Made by a program: the position numbers and the translations under genes. From positions 39,803 through 103,802 of the IMG/VR virus record IMGVR_UViG_2671180139_000002: 64,000 nt of DNA; one strand, given 5' to 3'. Below are positions 7,308-63,904 of this stretch, piece by piece. Position 1 is the stretch's first letter. The number at the start of each line of letters is the position of its first letter. A model generated the notes under the pieces. The model saw nothing but the letters and a program-made list of their open reading frames with translations. It had not been told where the DNA came from and did no database searches. Source of the stretch: a virus (taxonomy: Duplodnaviria > Heunggongvirae > Uroviricota > Caudoviricetes).

Positions 7308-7852
7308 ACGTGACGCCAGGTCCTTTCTTCACGAATGTCGCTGATGGTTCCGCGACTGACCCCGTGTTTCATAGCGAGATCGGTCACGGTTGCGTCCGAT
7401 TGGCGGATGGCGATGACGTCATCCGGGGTGAGCTTGGAGTTGCCGTTTGCAGTACCGCGGGTGGCTTTCAAACCGTGGGCGAAGGCGTGCTTCTCCTGGT
7501 CGCTGCGGCTCGCCCATTCCAGGTTACCGACGGAGTTGTCGGTCTTGTCGCCGCTCTTGTGGTTGACCTCGGGCAGGTTGTCCGGGTTCGGGATCAGGGC
7601 CAGACCGATCACCCGGTTCACCAGGACCGACTTGCTGATGCCGTCGAACGTCATGGTGAAGTACAGACGCTCCGTCTTGCGGTGGAGCGACGGCTTCACC
7701 CGGCGATAGACCCACTTCTTGCCTTCCATGAGGACGGTGCGGATCGCGCTCTTCGGTGCCGGCGCTCTGTACCAAACGGAGCCGTCTTCTCGGGCAACGT
7801 AGACCCGGTAGCGAAGCGCCCGGAGGATCCAGGCGTCCTTAGACCAAGTCAT
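7304..7852 (-). CDS. HNH homing endonuclease
   Basis: NHKSGDKTDNSVGNLEWASRSDQEKHAFAHG matches the HNH_3 pattern (NH.dGdKtNN...NLEw.t..eN..H); C-terminal HTH-like tail. Confidence 0.65.
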   Translation of the reverse strand: MTWSKDAWILRALRYRVYVAREDGSVWYRAPAPKSAIRTVLMEGKKWVYRRVKPSLHRKTERLYFTMTFDGISKSVLVNRVIGLALIPNPDNLPEVNHKSGDKTDNSVGNLEWASRSDQEKHAFAHGLKATRGTANGNSKLTPDDVIAIRQSDATVTDLAMKHGVSRGTISDIREERTWRHV

Positions 7853-8415
7853 GCGGCTCTCCCGAATTCACCGAAGGCGCGCTTCGCCGCGTGCTCGTAG
7901 GCGTCGCGCGCCTCAGCCGCTGTCGCGAAGCTGCCAAGAAATTTAGCTGTTCCCTTGATGGTGATTTGGGCGAGCCAACGACCGTTTCGTTCGCGAACTC
8001 CTTTAATGCCGCTGGTGTTGTTCGACGGCGCGTTCTTGTTTGCGGCGCTCTCGCCCCCGTCAGCGAGACGGAGATTCTCAAATCGGTTGTTCCTGGGGTT
8101 TGTGTCGATGTGATCGACAATTCGGTCGGGCCAAGTGCCGGTGACTAGAGCCCAGATGACGCGTTGTCCGAGAAGAGGAGCGCCGTCGACTGTCAGCTTG
8201 AGATATCCATCAGGGCGGAAGCCGCCAGCAAGCGCACCAGCCAAGCAGCCACGACCAGGCCGCGTGACGCGCCAGCGCAGTTCTCCCGTGCTGGGCTCAT
8301 AGCTGAGAACTTCGCGTAGGCGTTCAATCGTAGGCAGCGGACGAACCCTTTTAGGCCCAATCTGAGTGATGCCCTCCAGCAACTCAGATCTCCCGAGTTT
8401 TGGCGGAACCGACAC
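7849..8415 (-). CDS. HNH-AP2 homing endonuclease
   Basis: VDHIDTNPRNNRFENLRLA is the HNH_3 core; GIKGVRERNGRWLAQITIKGTAKFLGSFATAEEAARAYEHAA is AP2-like. Confidence 0.7.
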   Translation of the reverse strand: MSVPPKLGRSELLEGITQIGPKRVRPLPTIERLREVLSYEPSTGELRWRVTRPGRGCLAGALAGGFRPDGYLKLTVDGAPLLGQRVIWALVTGTWPDRIVDHIDTNPRNNRFENLRLADGGESAANKNAPSNNTSGIKGVRERNGRWLAQITIKGTAKFLGSFATAAEARDAYEHAAKRAFGEFGRAA

Positions 8416-42876: not shown

Positions 42877-43467
42877 ATGAACTGGTATTTGAAGGCGATG
42901 CGCCGCTACTTCGAGTGGCGTGGTCGATCGGCGCGGGCCGAGTTTTGGTACTTCACGCTCTTTTATCTGATAATCTCCTTCCTCAGCGGTGTGGTCGATT
43001 ACCTCCTTGGCTACACCGATGTCGATCAGCTTACCCCGGTAAACACCCTGGTGATCCTGGTCCACATCATCCCGACGATCACCGTCTCCATCCGCCGCTT
43101 TCATGATAGAGATCAGAGCGGCTGGCGGACACTCGGTCTCATCGTTCCGATCGCCAATCTGGTGCTGCTCGCTGACCTCGCCCGAAGGGGAACAGACGGG
43201 CCCAATCGATTTGGCGACGATCCGCTCGACCCCATTGCCGATCCTCACGTCCATTCTCGTCTTCTTCAAGCTGGCGCCCCTAGAAGCGTACCTGTTGTCA
43301 ACCCGAGAAGACCCACATTCACTTCTCACAACGCCGCCGTACCCAGCTCCAGCAACAGCTTGATTGAAGAGATCGAGCGTTTGGATCAGCTTCGGCGAAA
43401 CGGCGTCATCTCCGAGCAGGAGTTCGATCGTCTGAAAGCCAACACCATGAAGCGAGCTGACGCATAA
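42877..43467 (+). CDS. DUF805-family inner-membrane protein with C-terminal SHOCT domain
   Basis: MNWYLKAMRRYFEWRGRSARAEFWYF...IRRFHDRDQSGW is the DUF805 signature; C-terminal LIEEIERLDQLRRNGVISEQEFDRLKAN is SHOCT-like. Confidence 0.7.
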   Translation: MNWYLKAMRRYFEWRGRSARAEFWYFTLFYLIISFLSGVVDYLLGYTDVDQLTPVNTLVILVHIIPTITVSIRRFHDRDQSGWRTLGLIVPIANLVLLADLARRGTDGPNRFGDDPLDPIADPHVHSRLLQAGAPRSVPVVNPRRPTFTSHNAAVPSSSNSLIEEIERLDQLRRNGVISEQEFDRLKANTMKRADA

Positions 43468-43898
43468 TGAACCCCGACGTTTCTACGGGCCTTCTGCTCA
43501 TCGTCATCCTGATTGCGCTCTATCTGTTGCCCGCGATCATCGCCTTCTCACGAGGGCACCATAACCGGGTCGCCATCCTCGTTCTCAACTTGCTGCTGGG
43601 ATGGTCAGTTCTCGGTTGGATCGCCGCGCTGGTTTGGTCGTTCACGGCGGTCGAGCGTGCGCCAGGCGTCATTTATACCGATCAGCGAGCCCGTGAGCCA
43701 CGAACCGTTCGTATTGAGCCCGTTTCGCCCGTTCGGCAGATCGAACCTGTGGTGTCGGCCGAACCGCCGGCGAGCTTAGACGGGGCCGATATCGAAGAGC
43801 ATTTGCGCCATCTTGAGGCGTTAAGAGGTCGCGGCGTGATCACCGAGGAAGAACTGCGCGAACTCAGGCTGAAGGCGATCAGCCACTCCGTCCGATAG
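43467..43898 (+). CDS. superinfection immunity (Imm-family) membrane protein with C-terminal SHOCT domain
   Basis: LYLLPAIIAFSRGHHNRVAILVLNLLLGWSVLGWIAALVWSF matches the Imm_superinfect signature; C-terminal LRHLEALRGRGVITEEELRELRLKA is SHOCT-like. Confidence 0.65.
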   Translation: MNPDVSTGLLLIVILIALYLLPAIIAFSRGHHNRVAILVLNLLLGWSVLGWIAALVWSFTAVERAPGVIYTDQRAREPRTVRIEPVSPVRQIEPVVSAEPPASLDGADIEEHLRHLEALRGRGVITEEELRELRLKAISHSVR

Positions 43899-43993
43899 GC
43901 GATCTCGACACCACCGGAAGTAGCATGGTGGGACGCACCCGGACCATGCTCCTCTCAACTCGTTCTTCGTTCTCGAAGAGCGGGAGAGAGATA

Positions 43994-44434
43994 ATGAGAA
44001 GCATCATTCAGGTGGCAGAGGTGTTGTCGGTGATCAGCTTCGTCGCGTTCTGTTTGATGGGCGCGGTGACCCTCTGGATCCAACAAAAGGCAGCAGCGGC
44101 CGCCGGCGCAGCCACAACCAGTGCGGCTGGTGCCGCCGCGAGCGCCGCGGCACAGCCTACAGCCGATCAGCACGGCTTCGCAGCCGATGCGTTGCAGACT
44201 GCAGTCGACCTGGTGAAAGCAATTCCTGCAGCAATGGAGGCCGTCGTAAAGGCAGGACCCGCCATGGCGGCACTTCTTGCTTCCATACTCTTTCTGGCGA
44301 TCGCGGCCACGGTCGCGATCGAGCGCCAGCCGAAACTCTCATGCTCGATCCCCGCGCAGACGGGCCTGACCCTTGACCAAAACAAGTTGAAAGATGCGGT
44401 GACGGTGATCTGCGTGGGCGTCAAGAAGAGCTAG
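43994..44434 (+). CDS. membrane protein (Ala-rich, 2-3 TM)
   Basis: Hydrophobic helices at both ends and a poly-Ala central segment; third gene of the plus-strand island. Confidence 0.4.
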   Translation: MRSIIQVAEVLSVISFVAFCLMGAVTLWIQQKAAAAAGAATTSAAGAAASAAAQPTADQHGFAADALQTAVDLVKAIPAAMEAVVKAGPAMAALLASILFLAIAATVAIERQPKLSCSIPAQTGLTLDQNKLKDAVTVICVGVKKS

Positions 44435-44929: not shown

Positions 44930-46102
44930 GTGAACGGCATCGCTTTGCCTGAAAACGGGGAATTGATGCAGACCGTCCCATCGGGCGGCCGACGGCTCAC
45001 GCCTGCCGTTTTGGCCGGGAGAGAACTCGCGTTCGAGAAAGAGCGCACCGTCTCTCGTAAGGAATTGGCGCAAACCGCTCGTGAAGCTGAGAAAGCTCTC
45101 TCGCTGCGGCCCGGGCTGCGTCTGGTCCTCCATGAGCTTGTTGGCTCTTGGGGCGAACAGGACTTCGAGGGCAAGCTTCTGGTCTGGCCGTCGAATGATT
45201 ACCTGGTCGCGCGCACCGGCTTGTCGGAACGCACCGTGCGGTATGCGGTCAGCCAGCTTGTGGAGCTGCAGCTCGTCTCCTCGAAGGACTCCGCGAATGG
45301 GAAGCGCTTCGCTATTCGCGATCGCGCCGGCGAGATCGTGGACGCCTTCGGCTTCGACCTGACGCCTCTCTATGCGCGCCGGGGAGAGTTCACTGCCGAG
45401 ATCGAGCGCCAGAAGCTCGCGCGTGACGCCCAGGGGCGCTTGTTCGACCAGATTACGATCTGTCGCCGGGCGACGGAGGAAGCGCTCAGCGCGCTCGCGG
45501 AGCATTTCCCGGGTGTCGTCACTGCTGATCTGATCGAAGCGCTGGATGAGCTTCGCGAGCGTACTCCGCGACGTGGTTCCATGCGGCCAATCGAACGGCT
45601 TGTCGGTGAGTGGTTAGAGATCCGAAGGCTTGCCGAGAAGCGCTATTATGAGTCCGCCAATGGCGGCAATTCTTGCCGCCACAAAGAAACAAACAACGAC
45701 TCCCCTAGTGAGTCTTGTACAAAGGTCGATGAGGGAGTTGGTTCAGCGGAACGGCCCGTTTCCCTCACACTCGGCCTCGTATTGGATGCCTGCCCTGCCC
45801 TTTCGATGTATCCGCGGCCGATCCGCAGCGAAAATGACCTGATCGACGCTGGAAAGCATCTTCGATCCATGCTGAGCGCACATCCGAGCGCCTGGCGAGA
45901 GGCCGTTGAGGCGATCGGACCCGTGCGAGCTGCCGGCGCCGTTGCTCTCGTGCTCCAGCTCTATGAAGACGATCAGGCCGCGGGCACGAACCGGATCCGA
46001 AATCCTGGCGGCTACTTCCGAGCCATGGTGCGCATGGTCGCCGAGGGCCGGGTCGACCTGCAGACGGAGATCATCGCGCTTCGGAAACGTCGGCTCTGCT
46101 GA
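44930..46102 (+). CDS. repC: RepC-like plasmid replication initiator (repABC family)
   Basis: LLVWPSNDYLVARTGLSERTVRYAVSQLVELQLVSSKDSANGKRFAIRDRAGEIVDAFGFDLTPLYARRGEF...ICRR aligns closely with RepC proteins; an internal AT-rich stretch lies at ~45640-45730. The true start may be the second Met at 44966. Confidence 0.7.
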   Translation: MNGIALPENGELMQTVPSGGRRLTPAVLAGRELAFEKERTVSRKELAQTAREAEKALSLRPGLRLVLHELVGSWGEQDFEGKLLVWPSNDYLVARTGLSERTVRYAVSQLVELQLVSSKDSANGKRFAIRDRAGEIVDAFGFDLTPLYARRGEFTAEIERQKLARDAQGRLFDQITICRRATEEALSALAEHFPGVVTADLIEALDELRERTPRRGSMRPIERLVGEWLEIRRLAEKRYYESANGGNSCRHKETNNDSPSESCTKVDEGVGSAERPVSLTLGLVLDACPALSMYPRPIRSENDLIDAGKHLRSMLSAHPSAWREAVEAIGPVRAAGAVALVLQLYEDDQAAGTNRIRNPGGYFRAMVRMVAEGRVDLQTEIIALRKRRLC

Positions 46103-47509
46103 TCAGAAGAGCTTAAAGTGGGTCACCGGCTTGAAGATATCTCCTACGGCCTTCTCAACCTTGTAGATATCGTTTCCGGGACCTGGACCGTGTTGAAGAT
46201 CGTGAAGACCATTGTTGAGAGCCTCTACGGTTTTCCCTCGAAGCCCGAAAGGATCCTCTATCGTCTTCAGAGCCTGATAAGCTACGCTATTCTCCCCGAG
46301 AGCGTGTTTAATCATGTCATCCCGTTGGTGCAGTAGTTTGACAAAGTCATTATTTGGACCAAAGCACCCGTCGTCTGTGCCAATACCATGTTCGAGACAC
46401 TTTCCAAGCTCGCGCTCAAGAAGCTTACCGCCTGTGCAGACGACATACGCATGGGGCTCCATCTTGGTGTCGATCGCGCAACCTAGAGCGATCTGTTGCT
46501 CCGGAGTAGCATTACGGGCAATCGCGCAGACCATAGCAGCCGAGAGACTATCTTTGTTTTGGGTGAGACATGCGAGGTAGTACCGCTGATCCTCGTTCAT
46601 AAATGGGTCAGCCACGCAAACTGCCCGGTCGGTGTTGCTATGCGCCTTGTCCACGCACTTTTTGAGATTGGTCACCTTGTCGTATATTTCGGTGAATCGC
46701 TTCCCACCGGTGGAACAAGCTAGAGCTCTGACGCGATCCTCGTCGTTATCCTCAAGGCACTTTTCCGTGGTTCGGTATGAGCGCGGAAGCGCGCGCTCGA
46801 CAACACAGGACTGAAACTCATCCTCGGTATTTGAACCTTCCTGACATTCCCGCAGACCATCCAAGCTGGGTATCGGAGGCGCTGCCAGCATCGTCTCGGA
46901 CTGAGCCGTCCCCGAGTTGGTGATCAGCCCCTCGCCATTCATGCCTTCGGTCGGCACAGAGACGGATAATCCCGCGGGAGTTATGCTGCCGAAGCCATTC
47001 GGGTTGATGAAAATCGGGCCAGGATCGGAAGGCGGAGGCGGTGCGCAGATTAGCGCTCCAGGAAGCCCACAAGGCAATGCTGACAGGCAGGTAGGAAAAG
47101 GTGGAGTCCCGCAAGCTGGTGCGACCGGGAATGGTGGAAACGGGAATCCGGGCGGTGGAGGGCACGCGATCGTGCCCGGTAAGCCACACGCGCGCGGCAT
47201 CGGGCAAGGAGACAGGCCCATTGCACCGCAGAACGGCTCACCTGATGAACCTACAATCGGCTGGACCACCGACCCAGTGGGAGAGCCGAAACAGGGACCG
47301 TTGTTGATGCAAGACTCGAAAGTCGGAGTATCGACAAAGAGCCCGCTACAAGCTTGCATCAACTGCGTGTTGACCGCTCCAACGTGCCAGCAGTCGATTA
47401 TCTTAGATCTCGGAGAGGCTTGTGAGTGGACAGCGTTCGTGACGCTGACGATAAGTATGACGCTTATGCAAAACCGCAGTAAAGCCGAACGTGAAAGTGT
47501 TGCGCCCAT
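46103..47509 (-). CDS. secreted Cys- and Pro-rich protein (signal peptide)
   Basis: N-terminal signal peptide (LLRFCISVILIVSVTNAVHSQA); about 40 Cys; repeated CGxPG...PPPP segments; the DNA is lower in GC than its surroundings. Confidence 0.55.
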   Translation of the reverse strand: MGATLSRSALLRFCISVILIVSVTNAVHSQASPRSKIIDCWHVGAVNTQLMQACSGLFVDTPTFESCINNGPCFGSPTGSVVQPIVGSSGEPFCGAMGLSPCPMPRACGLPGTIACPPPPGFPFPPFPVAPACGTPPFPTCLSALPCGLPGALICAPPPPSDPGPIFINPNGFGSITPAGLSVSVPTEGMNGEGLITNSGTAQSETMLAAPPIPSLDGLRECQEGSNTEDEFQSCVVERALPRSYRTTEKCLEDNDEDRVRALACSTGGKRFTEIYDKVTNLKKCVDKAHSNTDRAVCVADPFMNEDQRYYLACLTQNKDSLSAAMVCAIARNATPEQQIALGCAIDTKMEPHAYVVCTGGKLLERELGKCLEHGIGTDDGCFGPNNDFVKLLHQRDDMIKHALGENSVAYQALKTIEDPFGLRGKTVEALNNGLHDLQHGPGPGNDIYKVEKAVGDIFKPVTHFKLF

Positions 47510-47540
47510 GGAAGTATAGCCTCATGTTGAGACAAGGACG

Positions 47541-47789
47541 TCAATGATAGTTAGCTTTGCATACGTCGTAGCAGTTACTCCATTTCTGCCGGCATATTGT
47601 CTGCTCTTGAAAGCCGGTACACGCTCTGTACTCGATCTCGCACTGCTGACTACACACCTCGAAACCAGAGATAACCAAGATCAGAGGTTCTGACCGCTTG
47701 GGCTCCGGTTCGTTGAGTGATTCAGTCGCATAGGTGAGCGATGTGGAGCTTAGAGTGATTGTTATGAGAGCGACGACAACACGAAACAT
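47541..47789 (-). CDS. small secreted Cys-rich protein
   Basis: Signal peptide MFRVVVALITITLSSTSLTYA followed by 8 Cys in a ~50-aa mature peptide; lower-GC DNA. Confidence 0.45.
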   Translation of the reverse strand: MFRVVVALITITLSSTSLTYATESLNEPEPKRSEPLILVISGFEVCSQQCEIEYRACTGFQEQTICRQKWSNCYDVCKANYH

Positions 47790-47900
47790 GGCGACCTCCA
47801 GAAAGGATACTAGCTCCCATTTTTTGGAGACAGGGGGCTCTACCTGAAGCCGCGATCGTAGTTGCCCTTGAAATGCCGGATCAACACAGCCGAAAGACTT

Positions 47901-47936
47901 AAAAAAAAAAGGAGCGGCGCCTTTCGGGACCGCTCC
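47901..47936 (-). terminator. intrinsic terminator (hairpin plus T10) on the minus strand
   Basis: Minus strand reads GGAGCGGtcccgaaaggcgCCGCTCC followed by TTTTTTTTTT. Confidence 0.65.
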
Positions 47937-47956
47937 TCACACCACACAAGAGGAAA

Positions 47957-47975
47957 CACGACTTTTGAAGTCGTG
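47957..47975 (-). other. second perfect hairpin CACGACTTttgaAGTCGTG
   Basis: Lies between the motif at 47997..48017 and the terminator. Confidence 0.4.
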
Positions 47976-47996
47976 CCTATTCTACGAAGCGCCAGA

Positions 47997-48017
47997 TGAT
48001 AAGTAAATACTGAACAC
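47997..48017. promoter_or_regulatory. motif instance (GATAAGTAAATACTGAACAC) directly downstream of the ligase stop
   Basis: Near-identical to the copy at 41895. Confidence 0.45.
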
Positions 48018-48041: not shown

Positions 48042-49391
48042 TTATGCCGCCTCTTTCAGCCTATCGTCCTTGTCATCGCGGAAGCGAACGAACCGCGGAT
48101 GACGGAGCGACCCGTCGGGCGTCACTTCATGGTACTCGACCTCGATCAGGCGCCCGATCAGCTCATTCTCCACGCCGCGATTATAGGCGTCCCAGAACTC
48201 GATGCGCTGCTGATCGGAGAAGCCGCCGCCGACACGGACCTGAACCCCTTCCCGATCGACGATGATGCCGCCGAGCTGGCCCTCGTACTTGCCCGAGCCC
48301 TCGAAAGCACCGACGATCCGAAGGTCCTCCGTTTCCTCGCCCTTGATCTTGAGCCACTGGTGCGAGCGCTTCTTGTGATAGGCGCCGGCGAGCGGCTTCA
48401 CCATCGCACCCTCGAGACCTGCAGCCTGGAAGTTCTCGTAAAACTGCATGATCTCGGAATGCGAATTGGCGAAATAGCGATTTGACGTCCGGATAGGGGC
48501 GCCCTTCGGAGCCTGCTTCACCACCCAGTCGAGGAATGCGCGCCGCGCCGCGTAGTTGATGGGGATCTCGTTCAGATCGTTGTTGAGGAACGCCTCGTAA
48601 GGCAGGGCCTCGAACACCATCAGTTCCGCATCCGTTGCCGATTCGGACTTGCGGCGCACGTCGCCGACGGTCTTGTTGAAGGAGCCGGAGACCACCTCGC
48701 TATCAAGCGCCAGGCGTGCCTCGTCACCGCCGAGCCACTCGCGGTAGAGCGCCCGCTTCTCCTCGTCCTCGATCGTGCCGAGAGCCGCGCGAGCATTGTC
48801 GAGCATCGCCACCACATGCGGGCCGAGGTGCTCGACCGCGGGAAACGGCTTACCAGTCCTGGAGAAGAACTGCGCCGCGCCGTCGCGGGCCAGGGCGATA
48901 TTGCGAACGCCGTCGTACTTGGGCTCGACCGCAACGGGCCATGCCTTGATGCGCTTCTCCTCGAACTTGTGCGCGAGCATCACGTCGAAGGTGGGAATGG
49001 TGCCGGGAAGAACCTTGTTCACGGTCTTGGCAGTGATGCCGCAGCGCAGGTCCTTGGAGAGGATGCGCCAGAGGAGCTCGGCCGCGTCGGGCGCCAGGCC
49101 CAAAAGCGTGTCCAGAACGTGCTGCTGAGCCGAGCCGCCGGTGATCGCGCGATCCTTCAGCGCGTCGAGAAGGCCCCAGACGACGCGATTGTCGGCATCG
49201 AATTGAAGCGTACCCTCGGTCTCGACCTTCGGCGGCGTAAGGCCAAAGGTGACAAAGGGATCGTAGGCATACTTCACAACCTGCTTCATCATCGGATCAC
49301 CGATGACACGTTCCAGGATCTCCTCCTTTTCCGTCCGCGAGTTGGTGTCAGCGATCTGATTGAGGACCGCGAGGGCGTCATAGGAATTCAT
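48042..49391 (-). CDS. ATP-dependent DNA ligase
   Basis: Adenylation motif I KYDGVR (EPKYDGVRNIA), further nucleotidyltransferase motifs and an OB domain; 449 aa. Confidence 0.85.
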   Translation of the reverse strand: MNSYDALAVLNQIADTNSRTEKEEILERVIGDPMMKQVVKYAYDPFVTFGLTPPKVETEGTLQFDADNRVVWGLLDALKDRAITGGSAQQHVLDTLLGLAPDAAELLWRILSKDLRCGITAKTVNKVLPGTIPTFDVMLAHKFEEKRIKAWPVAVEPKYDGVRNIALARDGAAQFFSRTGKPFPAVEHLGPHVVAMLDNARAALGTIEDEEKRALYREWLGGDEARLALDSEVVSGSFNKTVGDVRRKSESATDAELMVFEALPYEAFLNNDLNEIPINYAARRAFLDWVVKQAPKGAPIRTSNRYFANSHSEIMQFYENFQAAGLEGAMVKPLAGAYHKKRSHQWLKIKGEETEDLRIVGAFEGSGKYEGQLGGIIVDREGVQVRVGGGFSDQQRIEFWDAYNRGVENELIGRLIEVEYHEVTPDGSLRHPRFVRFRDDKDDRLKEAA

Positions 49392-62619: not shown

Positions 62620-63033
62620 TCACGCGCCGAGCCCGGCGGAAATTGCCGCCCAGTCCACCTGTACCGCCTCGTCGACCTCTGCTCTCTTCTTGGCAGCATC
62701 GATGGCGACCTTGAGCGTGTAGCGCAGATTCTCCAGCTTGGAGTTTACCAGAGTCCACTGATCGGCCGTATTCTTGGTCACCTGAGCCGTAGCGGCGATC
62801 GTCTGTCTCTTGGCTTCAGCCTCTGCCCTAATTAGCGGGTAGCTGTCGGCGTGAGCTTCGACGTTTGGATCGGCGAGCGCGGTCGTCGCTTCCTGCAACT
62901 TGGTGAGATACGTCAGTTCCTGGCCCGGAATCACGGTCAGATAAACCGAACGAATCTTGCCGATCTGAGTGTTCACCTCAGTGACCTTCTCGGCCTTATA
63001 GGCCGCCAGATCGAACGTCATGGCGAGCTTCAT
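62620..63033 (-). CDS. hypothetical protein (structural region)
   Basis: 137-aa ORF, coupled to the upstream gene. Confidence 0.35.
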   Translation of the reverse strand: MKLAMTFDLAAYKAEKVTEVNTQIGKIRSVYLTVIPGQELTYLTKLQEATTALADPNVEAHADSYPLIRAEAEAKRQTIAATAQVTKNTADQWTLVNSKLENLRYTLKVAIDAAKKRAEVDEAVQVDWAAISAGLGA

Positions 63034-63521
63034 TCCGCAGTCACCTCGAACCTGAAAACCTTATTGAGCTCGGGATAGGCGACCGTGATCGCATATGTGC
63101 AAGGTTCTTCAGCCACAAGCTCAACATCAGTGCCGTCGGACAGATATTCCGCATCGTTGATGGCGATAGAAGCGCCCTGGAGAACTCCCTGAAGAAGGGC
63201 ATAATCCACGCCGTCAGCCGCGACTGTCGCTTTCGACAAAGTCGGCTGAGGAAAGGGAATGGCTTGCAATGAAGCCAGATCGATGATGCTGGCATCGAAG
63301 GGCGTGACCAGTAAATTCACCAGACCAAACCCCTCCGGCGGTGTCGGGAGATGAACGCGCTGAATGCGACCAGCGGAACGAATGATCCCGGTCGTCAGAG
63401 AATAGATGACGAAGGGAACGATATCGAATGGATTAGGCTCGCTGCTAGGCGCGCTAGCGTAATCATCCGAAACGGCTTCCGAGGACGACTGATCTTCTGA
63501 GAAATCCTCTACTTCGCTCAA
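63030..63521 (-). CDS. hypothetical protein (structural region)
   Basis: 163 aa with an acidic N-terminus. Confidence 0.35.
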   Translation of the reverse strand: MSEVEDFSEDQSSSEAVSDDYASAPSSEPNPFDIVPFVIYSLTTGIIRSAGRIQRVHLPTPPEGFGLVNLLVTPFDASIIDLASLQAIPFPQPTLSKATVAADGVDYALLQGVLQGASIAINDAEYLSDGTDVELVAEEPCTYAITVAYPELNKVFRFEVTAE

Positions 63522-63904
63522 CGTTTCATCTCCATCAAAACAATTGAGATTGTATTCTGAACGTTGTCGTTAACACTCGTAGAAAGAGTTGCCACAACGG
63601 TGACGGTCTGGTGTGGGTTGTACATATTTCGATTCAGAACAATGTAGCCGCTGTAAGTAATCGTGCCCTCGATCGAGCCGGTTCCTGCTTTTCCGCCGAC
63701 GGAGCCACTGGCGAACCAGTTGCCATTCACGGTCACAGTTAGCTGCGCGGAATTGTCACCGCTCGTGCCGTTCTTGAAGGTGGAGACCTCGGCCGTTACC
63801 TGAAGCAGAGCGTCACCCTGGCCGCTATCATCAAAGGTATGCTGCAGTGTCTGCTGCCCGGTGCCGTTGACGCCGGCAACGCTGGTGACAGAGTTGTACT
63901 GCAT
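63518..63904 (-). CDS. hypothetical beta-rich protein (possibly tail/baseplate)
   Basis: Ser/Thr/Gly/Asn/Val-rich beta-type composition; the start may lie beyond 63904. Confidence 0.3.
   Translation of the reverse strand: MQYNSVTSVAGVNGTGQQTLQHTFDDSGQGDALLQVTAEVSTFKNGTSGDNSAQLTVTVNGNWFASGSVGGKAGTGSIEGTITYSGYIVLNRNMYNPHQTVTVVATLSTSVNDNVQNTISIVLMEMKR

What the first reader, a model, noticed from the sequence alone, without database searches (positions are those of the whole stretch)
46103..47880. Lower-GC pocket encoding two Sec-signal, cysteine-rich secreted proteins, one of them Pro/Cys-repeat rich and 468 aa
Between repC and the ligase the GC content visibly drops. Two leftward genes there encode proteins with clear signal peptides and many cysteines. 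The 468-aa protein has repeated CG.PG…IC.PPPP / PFPPFP segments and about 40 Cys; the 82-aa protein has 8 Cys in a knottin-like spacing. Secreted, disulfide-rich proteins are odd cargo for a virulent phage. They may be morons affecting host surface or behaviour, bacteriocin or effector-like peptides, or horizontally acquired foreign genes. The pocket ends in an intrinsic terminator.
Basis: seen in the sequence. Interest (0 to 1): 0.65.

Follow-up and report, generated by a model that had tools for sequence, protein, structure and literature searches.

The report
Acquired secreted cysteine-rich phage cargo genes
A large rhizobial-type phage (probably one that can persist as a plasmid) has picked up two foreign genes for exported, disulfide-rich helical proteins; the larger one belongs to a widespread bacterial family that nobody has described, and its function is still unknown.

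Summary
Both leftward ORFs are real: 46103-47509 (468 aa) and 47541-47789 (82 aa). Both have Sec-type N-termini. Third-position GC is 0.58 and 0.57, against a mean of 0.78 for 60 other window genes (z about -3). The cysteine counts were overstated: 25 rather than about 40, and 6 rather than 8.

The 82-aa protein is not knottin-like. AlphaFold predicts a helix-turn-helix hairpin, and the symmetric Cys spacing (4-7-9-7-4) fits three staples. It has no homologue anywhere searched.

The 468-aa protein has a signal peptide, a 4-Cys helical cap, a duplicated (CG-x6-C) proline-rich stalk, and a 12-Cys all-alpha repeat domain. It belongs to a family of 613 clusters in Alpha-, Beta- and Gammaproteobacteria. 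The family has no Pfam, NCBIfam, PHROG, PADLOC, PDB or BFVD match.

Close homologues are solitary genes in defence islands, next to a prophage integrase, or beside Tn7-like or IS elements. They are usually GC-poor relative to their flanks.

Relatives (RHEph10, B1VFA) keep ligase and RepC but hold only small unrelated ORFs in this slot. That lineage is phage-plasmid-like, not clearly virulent. The terminator lies upstream of the two genes and ends the ligase operon.

Verdict: horizontally acquired cargo cassette encoding periplasmic proteins, function unproven.

The parts
46103..47509 (-). Gene for the 468-aa exported cysteine-rich protein (GenBank SER29168.1, UniProt A0A1H9MZT3). RefSeq calls only the last 284 aa.
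   Evidence: ORF. A 100% identical record comes from Faunimonas pinastri. Full-length homologues at 37-49% identity conserve the N-terminus, which supports the 468-aa start. GC3 is 0.58.
47423..47509 (-). Codons 1-29: Sec-type signal peptide (MGATLSRSALLRFCISVILIVSVTNAVHS | Q). The cleavage site is placed by homology with A-x-A sites in relatives.
   Evidence: Positive n-region and a 10-residue hydrophobic core (Kyte-Doolittle mean 3.08). All 28 of 28 full-length homologues show the same layout. There is no lipobox. SignalP was not run.
47276..47422 (-). Residues 30-78: small helical cap with four conserved Cys (C40, C54, C67, C73).
   Evidence: AlphaFold 10-residue block pLDDT 66-92 over residues 21-80, with helices 33-42, 48-55 and 61-68. 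The consensus motif is R-x2-I-x2-C-W-x2-GA-x-N ... CSGL ... SCM-x-GG-x-CF.
46886..47275 (-). Residues 79-208: Pro/Gly/Cys-rich stalk with four CG-x6-C units (C94/102, C108/116, C133/141, C147/155), then a Cys-free linker.
   Evidence: Cys spacing 8-6-8-17-8-6-8. Internal duplication has hhalign E = 1.1e-5. pLDDT is below 50, so the region is extended or disordered in the model.
46106..46885 (-). Residues 209-468: all-alpha repeat domain with 12 invariant Cys (C222 to C382), about one per helix. Motifs PEQQIA-x2-C and GCFGPNN, followed by a GPNN-type helical tail.
47541..47789 (-). Gene for the 82-aa exported ORFan peptide (SAMN05216548_114122). Residues 1-21 form a signal-like segment ending TYA|T. 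Residues 42-80 form a helix-turn-helix with 6 Cys.
   Evidence: ORF. The only hit among 5.8 billion proteins is itself. No tblastn hit in phages or plasmids at E up to 1. AlphaFold from the single sequence gives H42-58 and H63-80 with pLDDT 92-96. Cys at 46, 50, 57, 66, 73, 77.
47795..47799 (-). Shine-Dalgarno GGAGG, 5 nt upstream of the ATG of the 82-aa gene.
   Evidence: Read directly from the sequence.
47901..47938 (-). Intrinsic terminator (GAGGAGCGGUCCCGAAAGGCGCCGCUCC plus U10) after the ligase gene and upstream of the cassette.
   Evidence: Sequence. RNA fold of 47895-47985 gives -35.8 kcal/mol, z = -5.18, and 0 of 200 shuffles fold as well.
47954..48007 (-). Promoter-like site TTTACT-17-TAGAAT (48007-47979) followed by an 11-bp hairpin (47978-47954). 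Role unresolved: part of a tandem terminator, or a short RNA or leader.
   Evidence: The only Rfam match is sub-threshold (24 bits vs a gathering score of 80).
48042..49391 (-). ATP-dependent DNA ligase. This is the conserved right flank of the variable slot.
   Evidence: Pfam DNA_ligase_A_M 2.5e-19. It is 35-37% identical to the ligases of RHEph10-, B1VFA- and Y2_11-type Rhizobium phages.
44930..46102 (+). RepC replication initiator. This is the conserved left flank, convergent with the 468-aa gene, and the two stop codons abut.
   Evidence: Pfam RP-C 1.9e-45 and RP-C_C 1.1e-20. RepC holds the same position in B1VFA, RHEph10 and RHph_Y2_11. Junction sequence.

Best explanation
This is a horizontally acquired two-gene cargo (moron-like) cassette. 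It sits in the variable slot between the ligase-operon terminator and the 3' end of repC, in a RHEph10/B1VFA-type phage that probably persists as a phage-plasmid in Faunimonas pinastri.

The two genes are 31 nt apart and are probably co-transcribed. Both products are exported by Sec to the periplasm and folded there with disulfide bonds. The 82-aa product would be an alpha-hairpin with three staples. By antiparallel geometry the pairs would be C46-C77, C50-C73 and C57-C66. The 468-aa product would carry up to 12 disulfides across three parts: a helical cap, a rigid Pro/Cys stalk and a 12-Cys alpha-repeat domain.

Shown: acquisition, gene reality, export-type N-termini, domain architecture, and membership of a large undescribed proteobacterial family.

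Inferred: the proteins act as stable periplasmic or envelope binding modules that change the envelope of the carrier cell. The most plausible role is protection, either exclusion of competing phages or blocking of incoming periplasm-acting enzymes. They are not virion, lysis or replication parts. I put about 0.8 on 'acquired cassette for exported proteins' and only about 0.25 on the protective or exclusion role.
For: Composition:
- GC3 is 0.58 and 0.57 against 0.78 +/- 0.065.

Slot variability:
- The order ligase, slot, reversed RepC is conserved in B1VFA, RHEph10 and RHph_Y2_11.
- Their slots hold one to four small ORFs, which tblastn did not match to either window protein.
- A strong terminator separates the cassette from the ligase operon.

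Gene reality and export:
- GGAGG lies 5 nt before the 82-aa ATG.
- The whole 468-aa architecture is conserved, including the signal peptide, in homologues at 37-49% identity.
- 28 of 28 full-length homologues have signal-like N-termini.

Disulfide and helical fold:
- The 12 C-domain Cys are invariant.
- AlphaFold gives block pLDDT 81-94 for residues 211-380, all alpha, with roughly one Cys per helix.
- The 82-aa hairpin has pLDDT 92-96.

Not a phage part:
- No PHROG, phage tblastn or BFVD match.

Family:
- 613 cluster representatives at E up to 1e-3.
- 38 genomic loci in Alpha-, Beta- and Gammaproteobacteria.
- The C-domain is fused to TPR repeats in several members, which fits a binding-scaffold role.

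Mobile or protective context of close homologues:
- Septu-like PtuA plus HNH, and a Bil-type ubiquitin-like system.
- PLD nuclease, a PtuA-like ATPase and a methylase.
- A 1651-aa helicase-nuclease.
- Tn7-like TnsA/TnsB and a patatin.
- Next to the integrase of a P2-like prophage.
- IS-flanked on pHRC017.
- The gene is GC-poorer than its flanks in 8 of 9 loci.
- The same phage also carries an Imm_superinfect gene on the other side of repC.

Lifestyle:
- Phage-plasmid-like relatives.
- A 109.4-kb separate contig in an isolate assembly.
Against: - The defence-island association is anecdotal. It rests on about 8 loci with no background statistics.
- No promoter for the cassette could be identified.
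- No terminator follows the cassette.
- The 82-aa gene has no homologue, so its reality rests on the RBS, the fold prediction and the annotation only.
- Signal peptides and disulfides are predicted, not measured.
- ParA and ParB were not found in the ten window ORFs I scanned, so the plasmid lifestyle is inferred from relatives.
- Many homologues sit in ordinary chromosomal neighbourhoods, for example in Pseudomonas tructae.
Confidence: 0.55

Rival explanations
1. Hitchhiking cargo with no role for the phage. The 468-aa gene is a frequently transferred accessory bacterial envelope gene that happened to land in a permissive slot. It serves some host-cell function unrelated to phage biology, or none at all here.
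For: Homologues are mostly chromosomal single genes in varied neighbourhoods. No conserved neighbour exists in the close subfamily. The gene's GC stays at 0.51-0.60 whatever the host GC. The slot lies at a convergent junction where insertions are harmless.
Against: All 24 mature Cys and all family-invariant residues are intact in the phage copy, so it is not decaying. The cassette has a strong RBS and an insulating terminator. Repeated association with mobile elements and defence loci suggests a selectable trait.
Confidence: 0.2
2. A secreted toxin, bacteriocin or effector (468 aa) with the 82-aa peptide as partner or immunity.
For: Both proteins are exported and disulfide-rich. The 82-aa hairpin resembles the CX3C...CX3C layout of antimicrobial alpha-hairpinins. 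In a distant subfamily, a conserved secreted Cys/His protein or a C70/C39-like peptidase lies next door.
Against: There is no toxin, pore-forming or enzymatic domain. No immunity-like partner is conserved beside close homologues, and the 82-aa gene is unique to this phage. Sec alone delivers only to the periplasm in a diderm. The mature 82-aa peptide is not clearly cationic as read from its sequence.
Confidence: 0.1
3. A periplasmic metal- or redox-buffering protein. The many cysteines would be free thiols that bind copper or other metals, or act in thiol exchange, rather than forming structural disulfides.
For: There are 24 conserved Cys in the mature protein. Family members come mostly from soil and rhizosphere Proteobacteria.
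Against: The Cys are spaced one per helix at 13-16 residues in a repeat, the pattern of inter-helix staples. They do not form CxxC or CxC metal or redox motifs. No metal-binding family was hit. The periplasm is oxidising, which is general knowledge of the Dsb system.
Confidence: 0.07
4. Ordinary phage structural or lysis proteins, such as a tail accessory protein or a spanin-like lysis factor.
For: The window is a phage genome with tail-fibre and rIIA genes. Spanins and some lysis proteins are exported.
Against: There is no PHROG, phage-record or viral-structure match. The genes are absent from syntenic relatives. They lie among replication genes. There is no lipobox. Most homologues are in bacterial chromosomes.
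Confidence: 0.03

Closest known systems
Phage morons and lysogenic-conversion cassettes (for example lambda bor and lom; from my own knowledge of the Hendrix/Juhala concept)
   Same: These are extra genes absent from syntenic relatives, wedged between conserved genes. They have deviant composition, are insulated by a terminator, and encode envelope-targeted products.
   Different: No promoter or downstream terminator of the cassette's own could be shown. The element is phage-plasmid-like rather than an integrated lambdoid prophage. The products belong to no known conversion-factor family.
T4 Spackle (gp61.3), a periplasmic superinfection-exclusion protein (PMC7677548)
   Same: Spackle is a small phage-encoded protein with a cleaved export signal. 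Its mature form of about 60-75 aa is all-helical and disulfide-stabilised and acts in the periplasm. This phage also has rIIA and an Imm_superinfect gene.
   Different: There is no sequence or fold similarity. Spackle is a five-helix bundle with one disulfide, whereas the 82-aa protein is a two-helix hairpin with six Cys. A lysozyme-inhibiting function has not been tested.
Alpha-hairpinins and twin-CX3C helical hairpins (plant defence peptides, small Tim proteins; PMC11591084)
   Different: Here the gap between the CX3C pairs is 22 residues and contains two extra Cys, outside the published X4-20 motif. The origin is bacterial or phage, and there is no sequence homology.
Disulfide-bridged helical repeat proteins: Helicobacter cysteine-rich proteins and Sel1-like repeats; periplasmic Sel1/TPR regulators such as ExoR and EnhC (from my own knowledge)
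   Same: These are exported, all-alpha tandem repeats with a pair of Cys per repeat, and copy number varies across the family. TPR fusions occur in this family.
   Different: No member matches Sel1 or TPR Pfam models in this domain, even at E up to 1. The repeat is about 29-30 aa with Cys 13-16 apart, not the 36-aa Sel1 unit. There is no structural match in PDB.

Membership tests
   AlphaFold predicts two helices (42-58 and 63-80, pLDDT 92-96) and no strands. The Cys spacing is mirror-symmetric at 4-7-9-7-4, as expected for an antiparallel helical hairpin.
Alpha-hairpinin | Motif C-X3-C-X(4-20)-C-X3-C with a helix-loop-helix fold (PMC11591084) | tested here: inconclusive
   The fold and the outer CX3C pairs are present. 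The gap is 22 residues and holds two further Cys, outside the published 4C and 6C motifs. There is no sequence homologue. The family is known from plants.
T4 Spackle family | Sequence or structural similarity to Spackle (PDB 6X6O) | tested here: not met
Sel1-like repeat / Helicobacter cysteine-rich proteins | Match to the Sel1 repeat model (PF08238) with a 36-aa alpha/alpha unit | tested here: not met
   No Sel1 hit in any of 23 family members at E up to 1. The repeat period is about 29-30 aa.
Sec (type I) signal peptide | Positive n-region, hydrophobic h-region, small residues at -3 and -1, and no lipobox Cys | tested here: met
   A heuristic hydropathy and cleavage-site test is positive for both proteins and for 28 of 28 full-length homologues. 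SignalP was not available, so this is not a calibrated prediction.
Phage moron | Gene absent from syntenic relatives and compositionally deviant | tested here: met
   The slot holds only small ORFs, unmatched by tblastn, in B1VFA, RHEph10 and RHph_Y2_11. GC3 z is about -3.
Phage moron | Own promoter and own downstream terminator | tested here: inconclusive
   A terminator insulates the cassette on its upstream side. No convincing sigma-70 promoter lies in 47790-47900, and no terminator follows the 468-aa gene.
Known anti-phage defence proteins (PADLOC) | Match to a PADLOC model | tested here: not met
   No hit for either protein or for the Pseudomonas tructae homologue at E up to 0.1.
Known phage protein families (PHROGs) / viral folds (BFVD) | Profile or structural match | tested here: not met
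   No PHROG hit. No BFVD hit at E up to 0.001. No tblastn hit in 50,697 phage records.
Phage-plasmid (for the whole element) | Phage genome with plasmid replication and partition genes, maintained extrachromosomally | tested here: inconclusive
   RepC is present. The element is a separate 109.4-kb contig in an isolate assembly. Relatives are reported with parA, parB and repC. ParA and ParB were not found among the ten window ORFs scanned, and the rest of the contig lies outside the window.

The most novel reading that the evidence does not exclude
The 468-aa protein is the first phage-borne example of a large, undescribed family of Sec-exported alpha-solenoid proteins stapled by disulfides (613 clusters; no Pfam entry and no fold match among solved PDB or predicted viral structures). 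In this reading the family works as a single-gene, envelope-level protection factor. It would exclude superinfecting phages or neutralise incoming periplasm-acting enzymes. That would explain why it travels on phage-plasmids, prophage ends, transposons and defence islands. The ORFan three-disulfide hairpin would be a second, independent periplasmic inhibitor.
Probability: 0.15. Interest if true: 0.75.

Novelty: new variant of a known kind. Interest (0 to 1): 0.42.

Why it matters
If the inference holds, this is a lysogenic-conversion-type cassette in a poorly studied lineage of rhizobial phage-plasmids. It would also give a name and a testable role to a protein family of several hundred clusters that no database describes and whose predicted fold has no match among the solved PDB chains or predicted viral structures searched.

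Periplasmic, single-gene exclusion or protection factors are under-sampled, because defence-system discovery has focused on cytoplasmic nucleic-acid sensors. The small hairpin with three staples is also a compact, probably very stable scaffold.

If the proteins turn out to be neutral cargo, the finding still has two uses. It marks a hypervariable insertion slot beside repC. It also corrects a RefSeq mis-annotation, where 284 aa are called instead of 468.

Full report
**The element**

The window is part of a large tailed-phage genome. It encodes a DnaE-type polymerase, rIIA, SbcC, DnaB, a primase and a tail fibre (PHROGs). It also encodes an RNR small subunit, a gp32-like protein and a RecA-like protein.

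- The polymerase is 59-61% identical to those of Rhizobium phages B1VFA, V1VFA-S, RHph_X66 and RHEph10.
- No phage record matches at the DNA level.
- Both proteins of the finding are 100% identical to records from Faunimonas pinastri. They lie on a contig of 109,453 bp, or 109,388 bp in an independent assembly of SRR4236216.
- B1VFA and V1VFA-S are published as siphophages with parA, parB and repC and as "possible prophage-plasmids" (PMC12509600).
- RHEph10 is said to be homologous to the known phage-plasmid pLM21S1 (PMC7969092).

The 'virulent phage' premise is therefore doubtful. A phage-plasmid resident in the sequenced isolate is the more likely setting. I could not find ParA or ParB among the ten window ORFs I scanned.

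**Checking the observation**

The ORFs exist as described: 46103-47509 (468 aa) and 47541-47789 (82 aa), both on the minus strand.

Composition:
- GC falls to 0.50-0.52 at both ends of the pocket, against 0.61 +/- 0.033 for the window.
- The Pro/Gly-rich middle is 0.61 for amino-acid reasons.
- GC3 is 0.584 and 0.566, against 0.776 +/- 0.065 for 60 other genes (z = -2.95 and -3.23).
- A CAI-like index is 0.46 and 0.44, against 0.59-0.79 for nine core genes.

- Cysteines number 25 and 6, not about 40 and 8.
- The CG-x-PG-x3-C-PPPP repeats are real. Cys spacing is 8-6-8-17-8-6-8, and the duplication has hhalign E = 1e-5.

**Boundaries**

Reading leftward from the ligase stop (48042), the order is:
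1. a promoter-like site (48007-47979);
2. an 11-bp hairpin (47978-47954);
3. a canonical terminator at 47938-47901, a GC-rich stem followed by T10 (fold z = -5.2);
4. about 100 nt with no convincing sigma-70 promoter;
5. GGAGG, 5 nt of spacer and the ATG of the 82-aa gene;
6. a 31-nt gap;
7. the 468-aa gene.

The stop codon of the 468-aa gene abuts the repC stop in the palindrome TGATCA. So the terminator is upstream of the pocket and ends the ligase operon. No terminator follows the pocket, and no flanking repeats mark an insertion.

**Comparative anatomy**

B1VFA, RHEph10 and RHph_Y2_11 share a conserved gene order:

ligase, slot, reversed RepC, small RHH-type gene, then HTH, CobT, CobS, sigma factor and DnaE.

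- In RHEph10 and Y2_11 the slot holds one ORF of 57-71 aa.
- In B1VFA it holds four small ORFs.
- Here it is 1.94 kb.

Neither window protein has any tblastn hit in 50,697 phage records. The cassette is therefore a lineage-specific acquisition in a variable slot. This phage also has extra membrane-protein genes (DUF805/SHOCT, Imm_superinfect and a 169-aa protein) upstream of the RHH-repC unit. RHEph10 and Y2_11 lack these.

**The 468-aa protein**

A search of 5.8 billion proteins returned 51 relatives. About 30 of them are full-length at 36-49% identity, for example from Pseudomonas tructae and Methylobacterium. A profile search of 1.84 billion cluster representatives found 613 hits at E up to 1e-3 and 239 at E up to 1e-30.

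What the alignment shows:
- The signal peptide, the N-terminal Cys cap, the Pro/Cys stalk and the C-terminal domain are all conserved.
- The 12 C-domain Cys are invariant.
- The motifs PEQQIA-x2-C and GCFGPNN are conserved.

This supports the 468-aa start rather than the 284-aa RefSeq call.

AlphaFold (23-sequence alignment) gives:

| Residues | Prediction | pLDDT |
|---|---|---|
| about 31-78 | helical cap | 66-92 (10-residue blocks) |
| 79-208 | no confident structure | below 50 |
| 211-380 (helices continue to about 458 at lower confidence) | all-alpha, roughly one Cys per helix | 81-94 |

The 60-residue four-Cys unit is duplicated (E = 5e-10). More distant relatives carry many more ~29-aa two-Cys repeats.

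No described family or structure matches:
- Pfam, NCBIfam, PHROGs and PADLOC;
- PDB sequences;
- BFVD.

Several members fuse the C-domain to TPR repeats.

**Distribution and context**

One genome per species yielded 38 loci in Alpha-, Beta- and Gammaproteobacteria, mostly from soil and rhizosphere genera. IMG/VR yielded 5 loci.

Close homologues are solitary genes with no conserved neighbour. Their surroundings are often mobile or defence-related:

| Locus | Neighbouring genes |
|---|---|
| L002 | Septu-like PtuA plus HNH, a Bil-type ubiquitin-like system, HTH/M78 |
| L014 | PLD nuclease, PtuA-like ATPase, DNA methylase |
| L011 | 1651-aa helicase-nuclease |
| L005 | Tn7-like TnsA/TnsB, patatin |
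| L012 | transposase |
| L049 | integrase of a P2-like prophage |
| L010 (pHRC017; a more distant C-domain-only relative, ~31% identity over 51% of the query) | IS elements |

In Methylobacterium and Paracoccus the homologue has GC3 of 0.57 and 0.62, where neighbours have 0.80-0.92. The gene is GC-poorer than its flanks in 8 of 9 loci. The family behaves as frequently transferred accessory cargo.

**The 82-aa protein**

- It has no homologue in any collection searched.
- It has a strong RBS and a signal-like N-terminus ending TYA|T.
- The mature part is predicted from the single sequence, with pLDDT 92-96, as helix 42-58, a turn, and helix 63-80.
- The mirror-symmetric Cys pattern puts CX3C on each helix and one Cys on each side of the turn.
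- This implies a hairpin with three staples, like alpha-hairpinins or twin-CX3C proteins, not a knottin. It does not fit the published hairpinin motifs exactly.

**Mechanism**

Shown: acquired cassette, export-type N-termini, conserved cysteine scaffolds, alpha-helical repeat architecture, and mobility of the family.

Inferred from general knowledge of Sec and Dsb: both products fold oxidatively in the periplasm.

My best functional guess is a stable periplasmic binding or inhibitor module that protects the carrier cell. The analogy is with T4 Spackle, a small exported helical disulfide protein that blocks the tail lysozyme of superinfecting phage, and with periplasmic helical-repeat binders. 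This is supported only by context: defence and mobile-element neighbourhoods, the nearby Imm_superinfect gene, and the TPR fusions. I give it about 0.25.

Rivals are neutral hitchhiking cargo, a toxin or bacteriocin, a metal or redox protein, and a structural or lysis protein.

**Verdict**

The setting is a probable phage-plasmid, which makes such cargo less surprising.

The real novelty is the undescribed protein family and the ORFan hairpin. Function is unknown, so interest is moderate.

Noticed in passing
window 47901-48007 (minus strand): A promoter-like site (TTTACT-17-TAGAAT) is followed directly by an 11-bp hairpin and then a strong GC-rich hairpin plus T10. The fold z-score is -5.2. 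This could be a tandem terminator of the ligase operon, or a ~75-nt small RNA or leader that gates the cassette. The only Rfam hit (STnc400) is sub-threshold.
   Followed up: partly
window 42877-44434 (plus strand): This is a second cargo pocket upstream of the RHH-repC unit. It holds a DUF805/SHOCT membrane protein, an Imm_superinfect (PF14373) protein and a 169-aa Ala-rich membrane protein, with GC3 of 0.66-0.71. The genes are absent from the equivalent region of RHEph10 and RHph_Y2_11.
   Followed up: partly
window 46100-46105: The stop codons of repC and the 468-aa gene abut in the palindrome TGATCA, with no terminator between the convergent genes. Read-through from the cassette would be antisense to repC, so transcriptional interference with the replication initiator is possible.
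   Followed up: no
window 46103-47509; also Methylobacterium sp. Leaf85 homologue (P0037): RefSeq/PGAP truncates this family. It aa (WP_143062029.1) instead of 468 aa, and 301 aa instead of 470 aa. This drops the signal peptide and the Cys/Pro-rich half that homologues conserve.
   Followed up: yes
loci L011, L012, L001, L002, L049 and others: Homologues of the 468-aa gene keep a GC of 0.51-0.60 whatever the host GC (0.54-0.67). They are GC-poorer than their flanks in 8 of 9 loci. This indicates either frequent transfer or a compositional constraint on the gene.
   Followed up: partly
loci L018, L031, L033, L035, L038, L042, L043 (downstream gene); L052:8758-9450: A distant subfamily has N-terminal GPICAGPLGPGPC repeats and the C-terminus IGGKRICLPWC. 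It is followed in 7 loci by a conserved ~200-aa secreted protein with invariant Cys, His and an NDC motif, which looks like a permuted papain-type hydrolase but has no Pfam or PDB hit. In L052 the neighbour is a Peptidase_C70/C39-like protease.
   Followed up: partly
alignment A1, C-termini of family members: Many family members end in G-x-x-hydrophobic-G-F, K-F or S-W. This aromatic C-terminus with alternating hydrophobic residues recalls outer-membrane beta-signals. The phage copy ends in HFKLF and fits less well. Significance is unknown.
   Followed up: no
window 63030-63904, 7849-8415, and about 500-1100: These are other low-GC or low-GC3 genes or pockets in the window (GC3 0.57, 0.65 and 0.62). 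They may be further acquired cargo.
   Followed up: no
whole window / source contig: The element is a stand-alone contig of about 109.4 kb in the Faunimonas pinastri isolate assembly. It carries RepC in the same conserved position as in RHEph10 and B1VFA, so it may be an unreported phage-plasmid of a non-rhizobial member of the Hyphomicrobiales.
   Followed up: partly
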